Assembly: GCF_017348835.2 (NCBI RefSeq)
Contig: NZ_CP071375.1
Reading direction: 5' to 3' (one strand)
Source of the DNA: Escherichia coli
GTDB lineage: Bacteria; Pseudomonadota; Gammaproteobacteria; Enterobacterales; Enterobacteriaceae
Length of the DNA: 64,000 bases
The position numbers are program-made. Positions 18,001-24,000 of the stretch are shown here, piece by piece. Each line of letters begins with the position of its first letter. The stretch's first letter is position 1.

Positions 18001-21000
18001 CGTGACTGGCCGTGACAGGGAAACCCGCGAATGGCTGGGCTGGGGCCATGCCTGGGTGCATGAAACCGCGGTGGTCAGACGGAAGAGTGAGGCATCCCGG
18101 TTTCAGGATTTTGTGGCCTGTGGAGACATGACGATTGTCCGTCGGGTCGGGGATGACACGGCGGAAGTGGCGGAGTATGTGCGTCGTATTCATGAGGCTG
18201 AGTTACTGGATCATATCGGTATTGACCCGTCAGGTGTGGGGCAGATTCTGGATTCACTGGCGGAAGCCGGGATCCCCGATGAGAGTGTGGTGGGGATAAG
18301 CCAGGGCTGGAAGCTGGGCGGGGCCATCAAAACCACCGAGCGCAAACTGGCTGAAGGGGTGCTGATTCACGGTGATCAGCCCCTGATGGCCTGGTGTGTC
18401 GGTAATGCCCGGGTGGAGCCTAAAGGTAACGCCATTCTTATCACCAAACAGGCCAGCGGACGGGGAAAAATTGACCCGCTGATGGCGCTCTTCAATGCGG
18501 TGTCCCTGATGTCCCTGAATCCGGAACCGAAAAAGAAAGCGTATGAGGTTTTTTTCATATAACCCTGCTCACCCTGTAACCATCATGAACCGCTGCGGCG
18601 GTTTTTTTATTTTCAGGAGGCTGATGTGACTCTTAAACGGGCCTGTTCCCTGCTGACGGTGAAATCCTTCAGTGAGGATGAACGGGTGATCACCGGGATT
18701 GCGTCAACGCCTTCTCCGGATCGGGATGGTGACATCCTGGAGCCGGAGGGGGCGGAGTTTGGCAGTACGATCCCGTTTCTCTGGCAGCATGACCATTCCC
18801 GCCCTGTAGGCCAGTGTACGGTGCGTCGGGTCAGGGAAGGGCTGGAAATCACGGCAATGCTGGTGAAGCCGGAGCCGGGGATGCCCTCCCAGATGGCAGC
18901 CCGGCTGGATGAGGCCTGGGCTGCCATTAAGACCGGGCTGGTCAGGGGGCTTTCTGTGGGCTTCCGGCCCCATGAATACACTTATCTGGACGGAGGCGGA
19001 CTGCATTTTCTGCGCTGGGAGCTGATGGAGGTGTCTGCCGTCACCGTGCCCGCGAATGCGGAATGCACCATCCGGACCATTAAATATTTCGACCGCCCGT
19101 TTTCTGCCGCGTCCGGCAACCGGAAACCGGTGGTGAAAATCGCATCTTCTGCCGGCGCTTCGGCACAGTCAATAACCTCTTTTCATAAGGAAAAGTCAGC
19201 AATGAATACTGGTGAACAGATTAAAAGTTTTGAAAACAAGCGTGCGGCGCTGGCAGCCTCCCTTGAGGAGATCATGAACAAAGCCGCAGAGGAAGGCCGC
19301 ACACTGGATGTGGAAGAGGAAGAGCACTACGACAACACCGCAGCGGAAATCCGTCAGGTGGATGCGCACCTGAAGCGTCTGCGTGAACTGGAAACCAGTA
19401 AGGCCGCCACGGCACAGCCGGTGAAACAGGCCGGTAACGGGAATGTGGCCACGGTGGCTTCAGCGCCGGTGATCCGTGTTGAGCAGAAACTGGAGAAGGG
19501 GATTGGTTTCGCCCGCTTTGCCAAATCACTGGCCGCGGCTAAAGGTGTCCGCTCTGAAGCCCTGGAAGTGGCCCGTCGTCAGTATCCGGATGACAGCCGT
19601 CTGCATCATGTCCTGAAATCGGCGGTGGGGGCAGGGACCACCACGGACCCGCAGTGGGCAGGCAGCCTGTCTGAATACCAGGAATATGCGCAGGACTTTA
19701 TTGATTACCTGCGTCCGCAGACCATTATCGGGCGATTTGGTCAGGGCGGGATCCCTGCACTTCGTCAGGTGCCGTTCAATATCCGCGTGCATGCCCAGGT
19801 GTCCGGTGGTGCTGCCGGCTGGGTGGGTGAGGGTAAGGCCAGACCCCTGACGAAGTTTGATTTTGAATCCATCACCTTCAGTCATGCGAAAGTGTCGGCC
19901 ATTGCGGTACTGACGGAAGAATTGATCCGTTTTTCCAGTCCGGCTGCTGATGCACTGGTCCGTAATGCGCTGGCGGAAGCGGTGGTGGCGCGTCTGGACA
20001 CAGACTTTGTGGACCCGAAAAAAGCGGCGGTGGCGGATGTCTCCCCGGCGTCCATCACCCATGATGTGAAGGGCACGGCATCAACCGGTAACCCGGATGC
20101 GGATGCCGAGGCCGCGTTTGGCCAGTTTGTGACGGCAAATCTGCAGCCCACCGGTGCGGTCTGGCTGATGTCCAGCACGAATGCCCTGGCGCTGTCCATG
20201 CGTAAAAATGCGCTGGGGCAGAAGGAATATCCGGACATGACCCTGCTGGGCGGGACCTTCCAGGGGCTGCCGGTGATTGTCTCCCAGTATGTGGGTGACC
20301 AGCTGGTACTGGTGAATGCGCCGGATATTTATCTGGCTGATGACGGCGGCGTGGCAGTGGATATGTCCCGCGAGGCATCACTGGAAATGCAGTCTGAGCC
20401 GACCGGCGACAGTACCACGCCGTCCCCGGTGGAGCTGGTTTCCATGTTCCAGACAGGCAGCGTGGCCATCCGTGCGGAGCGCTGGATCAACTGGCGTCGT
20501 CGCCGTACCGCGGCGGTGGCGGTGATCACCGGAGTGAACTACGGCAGTGCGTCCGGCGGCTGAGTCTGATGAGGAGGACGGGAGGCGTGCGCCTCCCGTA
20601 ACAGGTTATGGCAAAGATCCGATATCTGCAGGGCACGCATGATGCCCGGGCCGGGGATATCCGTGATGTGGCACAGCCGTGTGCGGAGGTGCTGGTTCGC
20701 CTGGGGAAGGCGGAGTACATCACAGTGCGACGTCCGGCAGGTCAGAAAAAGAAACGTGATGCGGAGCATGGCGAATGTGGAACCTTTTGCGGCGAACCCG
20801 AAAAAACCAGAAATCAGGACGTGATGTAAAAGAGGTGGGCTGGACCAGCCTGTTTCAGGCGGTGGCTGAGCCTTTTGCCGGCGCCTGGCAGCAGGGCGTG
20901 AAAGCCGATCCGGAAAGTGTCCTCTCCTTTCATGCGGTGTTTTCTTGCATTTCGCTGATATCCCAGGATATCGCCAAAATGCGACTGCGCCTGATGCAGA

Positions 21001-24000
21001 CCGATACACAGGGGATCCGCCGTGAAAAACGGCAGGGGGATATTGCCCGTCTCTGTCGTCGTCCCAATGCACAGCAGAATCGTATCCAGTTTTTTGAACT
21101 GTGGCTGAACGCCAAACTGCGTCACGGCAATACGGTGGTGCTGAAAATCCGTAACTCCCGGGGGCAGATCAAAGAACTGCGTATTCTGGACTGGAGCCGG
21201 GTTGAACCTCTGGTGGCGGATGACGGCGAGGTGTTCTATCGCATTACACCGGACCGGAACTGCGGGATCACGGAGGCGGTGACGGTGCCTGCCAGGGAAG
21301 TGATCCACGACCGGTTTAACTGTTTTTTTCATCCGCTTGTGGGGCTGCCGCCGGTGTATGCTGCCGGGCTGGCGGCCACGCAGGGGCATCATATTCAGGC
21401 AAATTCAACGTCTTTTTTCAGAAATGGCGGCAGGCCGTCCGGGGTGATTGAGATCCCCGGCAGTATAACGGAAGAAAATGCGAAAAAACTGAAGAGCAAC
21501 TGGGACAGCGGGTATACCGGCGAAAATGCGGGGAAAACGGCCATTTTGAGCAACGGGGCAAAATACAACCCCACGACGTTTTCACCGGTGGATGCGCAGA
21601 CGGTGGAACAACTGAAGATGACCGCTGAAATTGTCTGTTCGGTGTTCCGTGTCCCGGCCTACAAGATTGGCGTTGGCCAGCCGCCTTCCAGTGACAACGT
21701 GGAGGCGCTGGAGCAGCAGTATTATTCCCAGTGTCTGCAGACGCTGATTGAGTCCATTGAGCTGTTACTGGATGAGGCGCTGGAAACAGGGGAAAACGAG
21801 AGCACGGAGTTTGACGTCACCACGCTGCTGAGAATGGACAGCGAACGTCGCATGAAAACGCTGGGTGAATCGGTGAAAAATACGCTTCTCACGCCCAATG
21901 AGGCCCGTAAACGTGAGAACCTGCCGCCCCTTGCCGGCGGTGATGCACTGTATCTTCAGCAGCAGAACTACAGTCTGGAGGCGCTGTCCCGTCGTGATGC
22001 CCGTGAGGATCCGTTCGCGTCTTCCGGGAAAACGTCGTCAGGCACACGCCAGGAGGGCGCGTCTGACGGTAATAAGGCCATAAGCGAAACAGAGCGTGAT
22101 GCGGTGAAGGCGATGTTCAGGGGGATACTGCGAAAATGACAGAGCGTGAACTGTCCATTATCCGTGCGCTGGGTGAAGAATTCTCCACGGTGCTGGCGGA
22201 TTTACAGCGCACATTTGAGGGGAAGATGGCCTCGCAGGCACAAGCGTTTGAAGAGAAACTGACTTCCCTGTCGGCGGTATTACAGAAGCATGTGACGGTG
22301 GATGAGGTGCGTCCGGTTCTGCAGGCGATGGTGGATGACGCTGTGGGGGCCATTCCGGTACCGCGTGATGGTCGTGATTATGATCCGGATGTACTGCAGC
22401 AGGCGGTGAATGATGCGGTTGCGAATATTCCGGTACCGGCGGACGGCAAAAGTATTACCCCCGATGATGTGCGTCCGATGCTTGAACAGATGGTGAAGGA
22501 GGCGGTAAGCCATATTCCTGTTCCGCGTGATGGTCGTGATTACGATCCGGAAGTACTGAAGCAGGCGGTGAATGATGCGGTTGCGAATATTCCGGTACCG
22601 GCGGACGGCAAAAGTATTACCCCCGATGATGTGCGTCCGATGCTTGAGCAGATGGTGAAAGAGGCGGTAAGCCATATTCCTGTTCCGCGTGATGGTCGTG
22701 ATTACGATCCGGAAGTACTGCAGAAGGCGGTGAATGATGCGGTCGCGAATATTCCGGTACCGGCGGACGGCAAAAGTATTACCCCCGATGATGTGCGTCC
22801 GATGCTTGAGCAGATGGTGAAAGAGGCGGTAAGCCATATTCCTGTTCCGCGTGATGGTCGTGATTACGATCCGGAAGTACTGCAGAAGGCGGTGAATGAT
22901 GCGGTCGCGAATATTCCGGTACCGGCGGACGGCAAAAGTATTACCCCCGATGATGTGCGTCCGATGCTTGAACAGATGGTGAAAGAGGCGGTAAGCCATA
23001 TTCCTGTTCCGCGTGATGGTCGTGACTATGATCCCGATGTTCTGCAGAAGGCTGTTCTGGATGCGGTGAGAGCCCTGCCGGCTCCGCAGGACGGGCGTGA
23101 TGCCACGGCACTGGAAATAATCCCCGCCATTGACGATCAAAAATCCTTTCCCCGGGGCACGTATGCCACACACCAGGGCGGACTCTGGCGGGCGTATGAA
23201 AAAACGCACGGGATGCGGGGATGGGAATGCCTGGTTGACGGGGTGGCCGATATTGACGTCAGCATGACCGGCGAACGGTCGTTCACTGTGGTGGTCCGGC
23301 AGAGCAGTGGCCAGCGTACGGAAAAAACATTTTCCCTGCCGGTGATGCTCTACCGCGGTGTGTTCAGAGCCGGTGAAACCTACCACCCCGGTGATACGGT
23401 GACGTGGGGGGGCTCGCTGTGGCACTGCAACAGTATGACCGGTGATAAACCCGGAGAAGCTCATTCATCAGGCTGGACCCTGGCTGCCAAACGGGGACGG
23501 GATGCAGGAGGCGGAAAATGACGGCATTACTGACACTGGAAGAGATCAAGGCACATCTGCGTGTCGACCATGACGCGGATGATGACATGCTGATGGACAA
23601 GGTTCGTCAGGCTACCGCCGTGCTGCTGGCCTACATTCAGGGCAGCCGGGATAAGGTGATTCGTGAGGACGGTGAACTGATCCCGGGCGAGGCATTAACC
23701 CGGATGAAGGGGGCTGCCATGCGACTGACCGGGATGCTGTACCGGAATCCGGATCTTGCGGAGCGGGAAGAACTGATTCAGGGGGAGCTGCCGTTTTCTG
23801 TTTCCGTGCTGATTTACGATTTGCGTTGTCCGACGGTGTTATGAGGAGGGGGAATGGCAATATCTGCAGGTCGTCTGACACAGATGATAAGTGTTCTGAA
23901 CCCGGTGTTAACCCGTAATGCTGCCGGAGAAATGACGGAAGAATGGGTGTCATGCGGGAAAATTCATGCGGATATCCGTGGCAGGAGCAGCCGGGAGCGG

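What the first reader, a model, noticed from the sequence alone, without database searches (positions are those of the whole stretch)
18626..22139. Protease-capsid in-frame fusion and non-canonical head gene order (TerL, protease-MCP, portal)
The prohead protease, a coiled-coil delta/scaffold-like region and the HK97-fold capsid protein are one 645-aa ORF. An internal ATG at 19202 has its own AAGGAAAAG RBS and could yield free capsid protein. That nested arrangement would dose and target the protease into procapsids. The portal gene follows rather than precedes this gene, unlike the HK97/lambda order. An out-of-frame TAA at 19186-19188 lies just before the RBS. So an indel-generated fusion cannot be excluded.
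Basis: partly seen in the sequence, partly recalled or inferred. Interest (0 to 1): 0.5.

Follow-up and report, generated by a model that had tools for sequence, protein, structure and literature searches.

The report
Protease–capsid fusion gene, nested capsid start
A very common E. coli prophage encodes its head-maturation protease and its capsid protein as one gene, and a ribosome-binding site plus start codon conserved inside that gene across about 100 relatives suggests it makes both a protease–capsid fusion and free capsid protein; this is a sensible variant of a known viral trick, not a new kind of system.

Summary
ORF 18626-20563 (645 aa) contains four parts. They are an S78 prohead protease with invariant His55 and Ser110, a disordered linker, a helical delta (scaffold) hairpin, and an HK97-fold capsid protein.

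The fusion is not an indel artefact. The module occurs in 1,251 of 5,426 complete E. coli genomes and is about 99% identical to long-tailed Stx phages. The fused state persists down to about 35-45% identity in roughly 145 protein clusters.

Unfused relatives exist, and their capsid gene starts exactly at the position of Met193.

The internal start at 19202 is strongly supported by comparison. All 22 genomic and 78 viral fused loci have ATG or GTG there, and nearly all have a Shine-Dalgarno core 5-12 nt upstream. That core is kept at the nucleotide level while the encoded amino acids vary, and the region is AT-rich and weakly folded.

The order TerL, protease/capsid, small ORF, portal is a conserved trait of the lineage.

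The fusion and the gene order are already annotated, for example in phage PAJU2 and in Stx phages. The nested start appears undescribed in the literature I could search. Translation of two products and their ratio remain untested.

The parts
16341..16904 (+). Terminase small subunit
   Evidence: Pfam Terminase_2, 35.2 bits. Conserved upstream of TerL in relatives.
16901..18562 (+). Terminase large subunit (TerL)
   Evidence: Pfam TerL_ATPase and TerL_nuclease. It lies directly upstream of the protease/capsid gene in all genomic relatives and in 61 of 80 viral contigs, and never elsewhere.
18587..18604 (+). Terminator-like hairpin followed by a T-run, between TerL and the fusion gene
   Evidence: Consensus scan. 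The number of such sites in the region is not above the shuffled expectation, so its function is unproven.
18615..18620 (+). AGGAGG Shine-Dalgarno serving the GTG start of the full-length ORF
   Evidence: Read from the sequence. Pairing with the anti-SD is -10.3 kcal/mol.
18626..20563 (+). Full-length ORF: protease, linker, delta domain and HK97 capsid protein (645 aa, 69.4 kDa)
   Evidence: ORF list. PHROG 617 matches over the full length (862 bits), and TIGR01554 scores 80.9 bits. Mass. Fused homologues of 644-648 aa occur at 73-77% identity across Enterobacterales.
18683..19084 (+). Prohead serine protease domain (residues 20-153). Catalytic His55 is at 18788-18790 and Ser110 at 18953-18955.
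   Evidence: Pfam PF04586 at residues 48-151. AF2 pLDDT is about 95 for residues 20-153. H55 and S110 are invariant, and E135 is at least 90% conserved, in 125 diverse homologues. Codons were checked.
19085..19201 (+). Disordered, hypervariable linker (residues 154-192)
   Evidence: AF2 pLDDT is below 50 for residues 154-189. The linker shows in-frame indels and low identity among relatives.
19186..19191 (+). TAAGGA: internal Shine-Dalgarno (AAGGA at 19187-19191) whose first three bases form the -1-frame TAA
   Evidence: Read from the sequence. An SD core at this spacing is present in 22 of 22 genomic and 74 of 78 viral fused loci. The Gly codon inside it is GGA in 17 of 18 loci, against 10.5% GGA usage overall. 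The unfused Burkholderia phage vB_SBP9 has an in-frame TAAGGA...ATG at the same place.
19202..20563 (+). Nested in-frame ORF from Met193: capsid protein precursor with its delta domain (453 aa, 48.4 kDa)
   Evidence: A start codon at this column is found in 22 of 22 genomic loci, 78 of 78 viral loci, and 143 of 145 cluster representatives as M, V or L. The position aligns with Met1 of the separate capsid genes in Snodgrassella, Acidovorax and phage vB_SBP9. The local sequence is AT-rich and weakly folded.
19208..19411 (+). Delta (scaffolding) helical hairpin, residues 195-262
   Evidence: AF2 predicts helices 195-222 and 229-262 with pLDDT about 96. The family profile aligns this stretch to residues 4-71 of the cf-PICI EcCI2 major head protein.
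19658..20560 (+). HK97-fold capsid shell domain (about residues 345-645)
   Evidence: Foldseek against the PDB: Bxb1 capsid E 8.7e-15, D3, and HK97 entries 1ohg, 2fte and 8cfa at about 1e-10, with TM (target) 0.6-0.73. Pfam PF05065 at residues 386-635. The ordered capsid protein of phage R4C aligns from profile position 346.
20608..20829 (+). Conserved small ORF (73 aa) between capsid and portal, overlapping the portal start by 55 nt
   Evidence: ORF list. It is 37-58% identical in relatives. It matches phrog_829, of unknown function.
20775..22139 (+). Portal protein, HK97 family
   Evidence: PF04860 272 bits and TIGR01537 356 bits against a cut-off of 112. It lies downstream of the capsid gene in all relatives where it was detected.

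Best explanation
This is the head-assembly core of a widespread lambdoid E. coli prophage of the long-tailed Stx-phage type. One 645-aa reading frame encodes an HK97-family (S78) maturation protease, a flexible linker, and a complete capsid precursor made of a delta scaffolding domain and an HK97-fold shell domain.

I propose that the gene yields two co-terminal proteins.
- Ribosomes starting at GTG 18626 make the 69-kDa protease–capsid fusion.
- Ribosomes starting at the conserved internal site (TAAGGA at 19186-19191, ATG at 19202) make the 48-kDa capsid precursor. This is the same protein that unfused relatives encode as a separate gene.

Both products would co-assemble into the procapsid lattice through their identical capsid parts. 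The N-terminal delta domains point inward, so each fusion subunit would carry one protease domain into the interior without needing a separate targeting tail. After assembly the protease would remove the delta domains and itself. That would leave a mature shell protein of roughly 33-40 kDa.

**Shown here by computation:** the domain content, conservation of the catalytic residues, conservation of the fused frame, conservation of the internal SD and start at the nucleotide level, homology of Met193 to real capsid start codons, and the conserved gene order.

**Inferred, not shown:** actual dual translation, the ratio of the two products, co-assembly, and the cleavage positions.
For: **Domains**
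- Pfam, NCBIfam and PHROG matches.
- AF2 model with pLDDT 86, showing a protease at 20-153, a disordered stretch at 154-189, helices 195-262, and an HK97 fold.
- Foldseek hits to the Bxb1, D3 and HK97 capsids.
- H55 and S110 invariant in 125 homologues.

**The fusion is conserved**
- 644-648 aa homologues at 73-77% identity across Enterobacterales.
- A single open frame in 19 of 23 full-length genomic relatives, reaching Reyranella, Burkholderiaceae and Candidimonas.
- About 145 of the top 150 representatives of 50%-identity clusters are fused.
- 78 of 80 IMG/VR loci are fused.
- 1,244 E. coli genomes carry at least 80% of this stretch.

**The internal start is conserved**
- Of 640 alignment columns, only the Met193 column has an SD core plus a start codon in at least 20 of 22 loci; it has both in 22 of 22.
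- In viral loci, 78 of 78 have a start codon (74 ATG, 4 GTG) and 74 of 78 have an SD core, often GGAGG.
- Among fused cluster representatives, 130 of 145 have Met within 5 residues of the column (background 23%), and 13 more have Val or Leu.
- The SD is kept while the encoded residues differ: K-G, K-E, E-G, Q-E-G, E-V, R-S. Its Gly codon is GGA in 17 of 18 loci, against 10.5% usage overall.
- The -25..+15 region has GC 0.30-0.40 against 0.47-0.62 for the gene. Its folding energy sits at a median 3.9th percentile.

**Homology to real start codons**
- In Snodgrassella, Acidovorax and Burkholderia phage vB_SBP9 the separate capsid gene begins at the residue that aligns with Met193. It is preceded by the protease stop codon and an SD.

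**Precedent**
- Nested protease/scaffold genes with a more abundant short product are documented for herpesviruses, phage lambda and the archaeal virus HFTV1 (PMC11565193; bioRxiv 10.64898/2026.09.13.751334).
Against: - I found no expression data for this gene or for any homologue.
- Within the window alone the internal SD (-6.2 kcal/mol) is unremarkable. It ranks 143 of 625 in-frame positions, and 3 of 12 in-frame ATGs are as good.
- In the window and its enterobacterial relatives the upstream start has the stronger SD (-9 to -12 kcal/mol), so the fusion need not be the minor product.
- In the wider family the internal SD is stronger in 54 of 75 loci, but the first starts in that comparison were assigned only roughly.
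- Elongating ribosomes coming from the upstream start could occlude the internal site.
- Similar fusions in small actinophages are described as single genes, with no internal start mentioned (PMC7302621).
Confidence: 0.75

Rival explanations
1. Single polyprotein only. The 645-aa fusion is the sole translation product. Every capsid subunit starts with its own protease, which later cuts itself and the delta domain away, as phage P2 gpO does for its scaffold. On this view the internal SD and ATG are an unused relic of the ancestral two-gene state.
For: The upstream start has a strong SD in the window and its close relatives. Protease–scaffold–capsid fusions in small actinophages are described as single genes (PMC7302621). 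P2 gpO is made as one full-length protein according to the HFTV1 preprint.
Against: A relic should decay. Instead the start codon is kept in 78 of 78 and 22 of 22 DNA loci and in 143 of 145 clusters. The SD is kept at the nucleotide level, while the surrounding linker has diverged completely and carries indels. The region also has the AT-rich, unfolded character of real initiation sites.
Confidence: 0.17
2. The fusion is a sequencing or assembly indel, or a recent inactivating mutation in a decaying prophage. The functional state would be two separate genes.
For: A -1-frame TAA lies 16 nt before the internal ATG. Unfused relatives exist.
Against: The same uninterrupted frame is present in 1,244 complete E. 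coli genomes, in isolated inducible phages (2851, 1717, BP-4795, YYZ-2008, PAJU2), and in about 145 clusters at 50% identity. All linker indels are multiples of three. The catalytic and capsid residues are conserved.
Confidence: 0.01
3. A programmed -1 ribosomal frameshift in the linker also releases free protease, terminating at the -1-frame TAA (19186-19188). That would give three products.
For: A -1-frame stop lies 13-19 nt before the internal ATG in 12 of 22 fused genomic loci. Eight of those loci also have an in-frame A_AAA_AAA, A_AAA_AAC or A_AAA_AAT heptamer 27-30 nt upstream.
Against: The window has no X_XXY_YYZ heptamer, only a run of four T. The stop and the heptamer are absent from the more distant fused loci. 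T before AAGGA also extends pairing with the 16S 3' end (TAAGGA), and the A-runs encode a Lys-rich linker. Either fact can explain the pattern without frameshifting.
Confidence: 0.05

Closest known systems
Pseudomonas phage PAJU2 ORF003, and the head genes of long-tailed Stx phages (2851 Gp17, 1717, BP-4795, YYZ-2008, Sawaravirus WGPS2, O157 Sakai prophage Sp6)
   Same: These are direct homologues: 92-99% identical in the Stx phages, and 46% over the first 258 aa in PAJU2. They have the same fused protease–capsid ORF and the same order TerS, TerL, fusion, small ORF(s), portal. PAJU2 is annotated 'prohead protease fused capsid protein'. It also has Met197 preceded by GAGG.
   Different: Nothing structural differs. 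None of these records annotates the internal start or a second product.
HK97 gp4 protease and gp5 capsid protein
   Same: The protease is of the S78 family. The capsid protein has an N-terminal delta scaffolding domain and the HK97 fold, and there is no separate scaffold gene. Unfused relatives of this lineage have the same two-gene layout.
   Different: In HK97 the two genes are separate, the portal gene precedes them, and (from my own knowledge, not checked here) the protease is targeted through its own C-terminal tail. Here the two are covalently joined and the portal gene follows. TIGR01543 scores below its cut-off (44.1 against 59).
Nested protease/scaffold genes: lambda C/Nu3, HSV-1 UL26/UL26.5, OsHV-1, HFTV1 gp17/gp17.5
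   Same: A long ORF starts with the protease. An in-frame internal start yields a co-terminal shorter protein that is the assembly partner, so the protease is carried into the procapsid by the shared C-terminal part (PMC11565193; 10.64898/2026.09.13.751334).
   Different: In those systems the shared part is a separate scaffolding protein that is later removed. Here the shared part is the capsid protein itself together with its delta domain, so the protease would be built into lattice subunits. Dual expression is shown experimentally in those systems but only inferred here.
Protease–scaffold–capsid fusions of small actinobacteriophages (Microbacterium cluster EE and EL, Arthrobacter AN, Gordonia CW); NCBIfam NF045541 'prohead protease/major capsid protein fusion protein'; Rhodobacter RcC phages
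   Same: The three modules occur in the same order in one gene, and the arrangement is recognised as a recurring architecture (PMC7302621; PMC9671004; 10.1101/2021.08.04.455094).
   Different: This is a different sequence family: NF045541 scores 52.7 bits against a cut-off of 525. Here the host genomes are about 50-60 kb temperate phages, not minimal genomes. Those papers mention no internal start.
Phage P2 gpO (protease–scaffold fusion made as one product)
   Same: An N-terminal protease is covalently linked to the assembly domain and removes itself by autoproteolysis (as summarised).
   Different: gpO has no capsid domain and, as described there, no internal start. It serves as the model for the single-polyprotein rival explanation.

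Membership tests
HK97-family major capsid protein with delta domain (PF05065 / TIGR01554) | Score above the curated HMM cut-offs | tested here: met
   PF05065 scores 55.2 bits against 24.2. TIGR01554 scores 80.9 bits against 27.5.
HK97-family major capsid protein with delta domain (PF05065 / TIGR01554) | HK97 fold of the shell domain | tested here: met
   AF2 model with pLDDT 86. Foldseek hits to the Bxb1, D3 and HK97 capsids have E from 1e-14 to 1e-10 and TM (target) 0.6-0.73.
HK97-family major capsid protein with delta domain (PF05065 / TIGR01554) | N-terminal helical delta (scaffolding) domain and no separate scaffold gene | tested here: met
   Helices 195-222 and 229-262. The profile aligns this stretch to residues 4-71 of the EcCI2 head protein. 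No ORF lies between the protease and capsid parts.
HK97-family major capsid protein with delta domain (PF05065 / TIGR01554) | Delta domain removed by the prohead protease; covalent cross-linking of mature subunits | not testable with these tools
   This needs virion protein chemistry. The cleavage position, about residues 263-345, is only inferred from low-confidence model segments and from where solved capsid proteins begin to align.
Peptidase S78 / HK97 gp4 prohead protease | Pfam PF04586 gathering score | tested here: met
   32.7 bits against 21, over residues 48-151.
Peptidase S78 / HK97 gp4 prohead protease | NCBIfam TIGR01543 equivalog cut-off | tested here: not met
   44.1 bits against a cut-off of 59. 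The domain belongs to the superfamily but is not an equivalog by NCBI's rule.
Peptidase S78 / HK97 gp4 prohead protease | Conserved catalytic His and Ser | tested here: met
   H55 and S110 are invariant, and E135 is at least 90% conserved, in 125 homologues at 36-77% identity. Assigning these residues as catalytic rests on analogy with the family and was not tested.
Nested protease/assembly-protein gene (lambda C/Nu3, HSV UL26/UL26.5 type) | In-frame internal initiation site giving a co-terminal shorter product | tested here: inconclusive
   The sequence signals are present and conserved: SD plus start in 22 of 22 and 74-78 of 78 loci, and unique among 640 alignment columns. Translation itself cannot be tested here.
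Nested protease/assembly-protein gene (lambda C/Nu3, HSV UL26/UL26.5 type) | The shared C-terminal part is a dedicated scaffolding protein | tested here: not met
   The shared part is the delta domain plus the capsid protein itself. The gene therefore works like this family but is not a member in the strict sense.
NCBIfam NF045541 'prohead protease/major capsid protein fusion protein' | Score above the curated cut-off | tested here: not met
   52.7 bits against 525. The architecture is the same but the sequence family is different.
PHROG 617 (fused 'major head protein' family) | Full-length match to the 626-position profile | tested here: met
   862.5 bits, with residues 1-639 matching profile positions 7-626.
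Head module of long-tailed Stx-converting / lambdoid O157 prophages (e.g. Sawaravirus WGPS2) | Near-identical sequence and the same gene order HNH, TerS, TerL, fusion, orf73, portal, repeat protein, adaptor | tested here: met
   The fusion protein is 99.4-99.5% identical to the best Stx phage records. The annotated order in NC_049941 is the same. The module is present in 1,251 E. coli genomes.

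The most novel reading that the evidence does not exclude
The many 'protease–capsid fusion' genes of proteobacterial phages may not be simple fusions. They may be two-product nested genes. A conserved internal ribosome-binding site would make free capsid precursor, while the upstream start would make a capsid subunit carrying the maturation protease. The protease would then be delivered as part of the capsid lattice itself. Its copy number would be set by the relative strength of the two start sites. 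Lineages could switch between fused and unfused states by gaining or losing one stop codon in a spacer of about 20 nt. This would be a third form of the nested protease strategy of tailed viruses and herpesviruses, and I found no description of it.
Probability: 0.6. Interest if true: 0.45.

Novelty: new variant of a known kind. Interest (0 to 1): 0.35.

Why it matters
How a capsid obtains the right, small number of maturation proteases is a long-standing question in phage and herpesvirus assembly. If the internal start is used, this family offers a simple and genetically tunable answer: two start sites in one frame. It also offers a natural comparison, because close relatives exist in both fused and unfused states.

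There are practical consequences too. Genome annotation pipelines name these genes 'major capsid protein' or 'prohead protease' and miss one product. Proteomic searches of Stx-phage particles should expect 69-kDa, 48-kDa and processed species. The gene sits in about a quarter of complete E. coli genomes, including Shiga-toxin phages, so the test system is readily available.

The gene itself and its position before the portal gene are ordinary and already annotated.

Tried and rejected
- **Shallow AF2 run:** a 15-sequence alignment gave an unusable model with pLDDT 40. It was replaced by a 125-sequence alignment.
- **Single-gene SD ranking:** ranking the internal site by anti-SD pairing energy within one gene does not discriminate, giving a rank of about 100 of 625. 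I replaced it with column-wise conservation tests.
- **phmmer of the protein against the PDB:** only one weak hit.
- **Internal promoter before 19202** (the herpesvirus solution): the scan predicted none.
- **Programmed -1 frameshift in the window:** there is no canonical slippery heptamer.
- **Papers not held in the library:** Duda et al. 2013 (PubMed 23688818 / PMC3709472), Oh et al. 2014 (PMC4044616), and Liu & Mushegian 2004 (PMC421614). They may already discuss natural fusions or displaced protease genes.
- **Papers opened and found irrelevant:** the CBASS preprint, whose fusion is protease–scaffold; Phage_Finder; the Cluster O and PBR31 papers, which only cite Duda et al.; Vibrio phage XM1; and Shigella phage Sf101.
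- **Literature searches for an internal start in protease–capsid fusions:** nothing found. The library lacks most subscription journals, so this is not proof of absence.
- **Comparison of the two start sites to infer stoichiometry:** inconclusive.

Full report
**1. The observation**

- ORF 18626..20563 (+) starts with GTG and encodes 645 aa. AGGAGG lies at 18615-18620.
- Codon 193 is the ATG at 19202-19204.
- AAGGAAAAG occupies 19187-19195.
- The TAA at 19186-19188 is in the -1 frame.
- Pfam places Peptidase_S78 at residues 48-151 and Phage_capsid at 386-635, both above their gathering scores.
- TerS (16341..16904) and TerL (16901..18562) precede the ORF. A 73-aa ORF (20608..20829) and an HK97-family portal gene (20775..22139; PF04860 272 bits, TIGR01537 356 bits) follow it.

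Taken alone, the internal ATG with its SD is not beyond chance. Three of the 12 in-frame ATGs have equal or stronger anti-SD pairing.

**2. Where the window comes from**

- The fusion protein is 99.4-99.5% identical to those of long-tailed Stx1a, Stx2a and Stx2c converting phages.
- In Sawaravirus WGPS2 the annotated order is HNH, TerS, TerL, 'major capsid protein', hypothetical protein, portal, a second 'portal', adaptor, and so on.
- The stretch 18500-20900 is 100% identical to E. coli PE164. It is present in 1,251 of 5,426 complete E. coli genomes, at up to 7 places per genome, including prophage Sp6 of O157 Sakai.
- Public names for the gene include 'major head protein/prohead protease' and 'phage prohead protease'. 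For the homologue in Pseudomonas phage PAJU2 (46% identical over the first 258 aa) the name is 'prohead protease fused capsid protein'.

This is therefore a very common gene that has been sequenced many times.

**3. Anatomy of the protein**

An AF2 model built from a 125-sequence alignment has mean pLDDT 86. It shows:
- a compact domain at residues 20-153;
- a disordered stretch at 154-189;
- two long helices at 195-222 and 229-262;
- a low-confidence segment, followed by a domain whose best PDB matches are HK97-fold capsid proteins. These are Bxb1 (E 8.7e-15), D3, and HK97 entries at about 1e-10 with TM (target) 0.6-0.73.

A profile of the family aligns residues 197-264 to residues 4-71 of the cf-PICI EcCI2 head protein. 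That stretch is the N-terminal delta region of an ordinary HK97-type capsid precursor. The ordered capsid protein of phage R4C aligns from about position 346.

His55 and Ser110 are invariant, and Glu135 is nearly so, across 125 homologues at 36-77% identity. This argues for an active protease.

Calculated masses are 69.4 kDa for the full length, 48.4 kDa from Met193, and 21.0 kDa for residues 1-192.

**4. Is the fusion real?**

Yes.
- Homologues of 644-648 aa at 73-77% identity occur in Salmonella, Enterobacter, Klebsiella, Serratia, Kosakonia, Pantoea and others.
- Among the full-length genomic relatives, one uninterrupted frame is kept in 19 of 23. It reaches down to Proteus (56%), Reyranella (46%), Candidimonas (38%) and a Burkholderiaceae MAG (34%).
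- A profile-free search of 1.84 billion cluster representatives found 1,175 proteins at E ≤ 1e-30. About 145 of the best 150 are full-length fusions.
- Of 80 IMG/VR loci, 78 are fused.
- The linker (residues about 172-192) is hypervariable, but all of its indels are in frame.

A sequencing artefact or a recent frameshift is excluded.

**5. Unfused relatives and the origin of the fusion**

Three relatives have separate protease and capsid genes in the same gene order.
- Snodgrassella alvi: protease 6001..6705 and capsid 6729..8048 in L025.
- Acidovorax: L024.
- Burkholderia phage vB_SBP9: protease 2007..2555 and capsid 2565..3887.

In all three, Met1 (or Val1) of the capsid gene aligns exactly with Met193 of the window protein. 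The junctions read as follows.

| Relative | Junction sequence |
|---|---|
| Snodgrassella | TAA, 13 nt, GAGAGG, 8 nt, ATG |
| Acidovorax | TAA, 6 nt, AAAGGA, 6 nt, GTG |
| vB_SBP9 | TAAGGA, TTACGT, ATG |

The window has the same hexamer, TAAGGA, at 19186-19191, with its TAA now out of frame. A -1-frame stop 13-19 nt before the internal ATG is seen in 12 of 22 fused loci.

It is not plausible as an error. The T also extends SD pairing with the 16S rRNA 3' end, which may be enough to explain why it persists.

**6. The internal start**

This is the main result. Five lines of comparative evidence point to a functional initiation site at 19202.

(a) *Column test.* I aligned 22 fused genomic loci and scanned all 640 well-populated codon columns. 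I looked for a start codon with an SD core (AGGA, GGAG, GAGG or AAGG) ending 5-12 nt upstream. Only the Met193 column has both in at least 20 loci, and it has both in 22 of 22. The annotated first start is the only other column with at least 15.

(b) *Viral loci.* In 78 fused viral loci at 42-72% identity, 78 have a start codon there (74 ATG, 4 GTG). Seventy-four have the SD core, frequently a full GGAGG.

(c) *Protein level.* 130 of 145 fused cluster representatives have Met within 5 residues of the column, against a background of 23%. Thirteen more have Val or Leu.

(d) *The constraint acts on nucleotides, not amino acids.*
- The residues over the SD vary: K-G, K-E, E-G, Q-E-G, E-V, R-S, R-N.
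- In the low-GC lineages the Gly codon is GGA in 17 of 18 cases, although GGA is only 10.5% of Gly codons in these genes.
- The substitutions seen at the start position are GTG, not the Ile or Leu codons expected for a structural Met.

(e) *Local context.* The -25..+15 region is AT-rich (GC 0.30-0.40 against gene medians of 0.47-0.62). It is among the least structured 40-nt windows of each gene, at a median 3.9th percentile.

Together with the homology to real capsid start codons (section 5), I conclude that the internal site is under selection as a translation start. I put this at about 75-80% confidence.

**7. Proposed mechanism**

Two co-terminal products would be made. One is the 69-kDa protease–linker–delta–capsid fusion. 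The other is the 48-kDa delta–capsid precursor.

Their C-terminal 453 residues are identical, so they should co-assemble. The abstract of PMC10275583 (seen) describes the HK97 scaffold as a domain of the capsid protein. That the delta domain lines the inside of the procapsid is my own knowledge and was not checked here. The protease attached to it would then end up inside.

Proteolysis would next remove the delta domain and the protease. The strategy is that of lambda C/Nu3, herpesvirus UL26/UL26.5 and HFTV1 gp17/gp17.5. In those systems the short form is the more abundant one. Here, however, the shared part is the capsid protein itself.

The ratio of the two products is unknown.
- In the window, the upstream site has the better SD (-10.3 against -6.2 kcal/mol) but a GTG codon.
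- In the wider family, the internal SD is stronger in 54 of 75 loci (with first starts assigned only roughly).

Dual translation, co-assembly and the cleavage sites are all inferences.

**8. Gene order**

The order HNH, TerS, TerL, protease/capsid, small ORF, portal, repeat protein, adaptor is found in every genomic relative, fused or not.
- Among the 80 viral contigs, TerL is upstream and the portal gene downstream in 52.
- One of the two is missing in a further 27, and both are undetected in one.
- No contig shows a different order.
- PAJU2 and vB_SBP9 show the same order.

The order differs from that of HK97 and lambda. It is a stable lineage trait already visible in published genomes. Nothing suggests that it has a special function.

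**9. Comparison with what is known, and novelty**

- Protease–(scaffold)–capsid fusions are a recognised architecture. Examples are Microbacterium clusters EE and EL and other small actinophages (PMC7302621, PMC9671004), Rhodobacter RcC phages, NCBIfam NF045541, and PHROGs 617 and 4523.
- The present protein belongs to PHROG 617 (862 bits). It does not belong to NF045541 (52.7 bits against 525).
- Nested protease/scaffold genes are also well known.
- I found no description of a conserved internal capsid start inside protease–capsid fusions. Three key papers were not available.

My verdict is that the gene and its position are ordinary and already annotated. The nested-start reading is a well-supported and readily testable variant of a known strategy.

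**10. Rival explanations**

- *Single polyprotein with a relic start, about 0.17.* This is disfavoured by the depth of conservation.
- *Artefact or pseudogene, about 0.01.* This is refuted.
- *Additional -1 frameshift product, about 0.05 for the window.* The window has no slippery heptamer. Eight relatives have A_AAA_AAA-type heptamers 27-30 nt upstream of the internal ATG together with a -1-frame stop 13-19 nt upstream. This deserves a reporter test.

Noticed in passing
window 22136-23521 (repeat array at 22352-23052): The 461-aa ORF just after the portal gene contains a 162-bp (54-aa) tandem repeat, 4.3 copies at 97% identity. Its length varies among relatives: 1,224 nt in NC_049941 against 1,386 nt here. 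RefSeq and PHROGs label it 'portal protein', but Pfam finds no portal domain, only a weak C-terminal CBM_5_12 match. It is probably mis-named and may be a head decoration or head-associated protein.
   Followed up: partly
window 20608-20829: A 73-aa ORF lies between the capsid and portal genes and overlaps the portal start by 55 nt. It is 37-58% identical in most relatives and matches phrog_829, of unknown function. PAJU2 and vB_SBP9 also have one or two small ORFs at this position.
   Followed up: partly
L005, L006, L007, L010, L012, L013, L014, L017 (linker region 27-30 nt upstream of the internal ATG): Eight fused relatives carry an in-frame A_AAA_AAA, A_AAA_AAC or A_AAA_AAT heptamer, and most also have a -1-frame stop 13-19 nt before the internal ATG. 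A -1 frameshift there would release free protease. The window lacks the heptamer.
   Followed up: partly
window 18587-18604: A terminator-like hairpin (GAACCGC-TGCG-GCGGTTT) followed by a T-run lies between the TerL stop codon and the start of the fusion gene. The number of such sites in the scanned region equals the shuffled expectation, and a T-rich stretch before the SD is also seen in relatives.
   Followed up: no
window 15685-16050: An HNH endonuclease gene lies just upstream of TerS. It is conserved at this position in most relatives (31-71% identity). HNH proteins are typical of HK97-like cos packaging modules; that point comes from my own knowledge and was not checked here.
   Followed up: no
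L020 (Arsenophonus endosymbiont), 4287-10875: In this insect endosymbiont the whole head module (TerL, fusion, portal, adaptor) is broken into several frames. It looks like a decaying prophage and contrasts with the intact fused frame seen elsewhere.
   Followed up: no
window 18500-20900 versus E. coli genomes: The module is present in 1,251 of 5,426 complete E. coli genomes, at up to 7 places per genome, almost always on chromosomes. Such multi-copy, near-identical head modules in one cell could allow recombination, or mixed assembly, between co-resident prophages.
   Followed up: no
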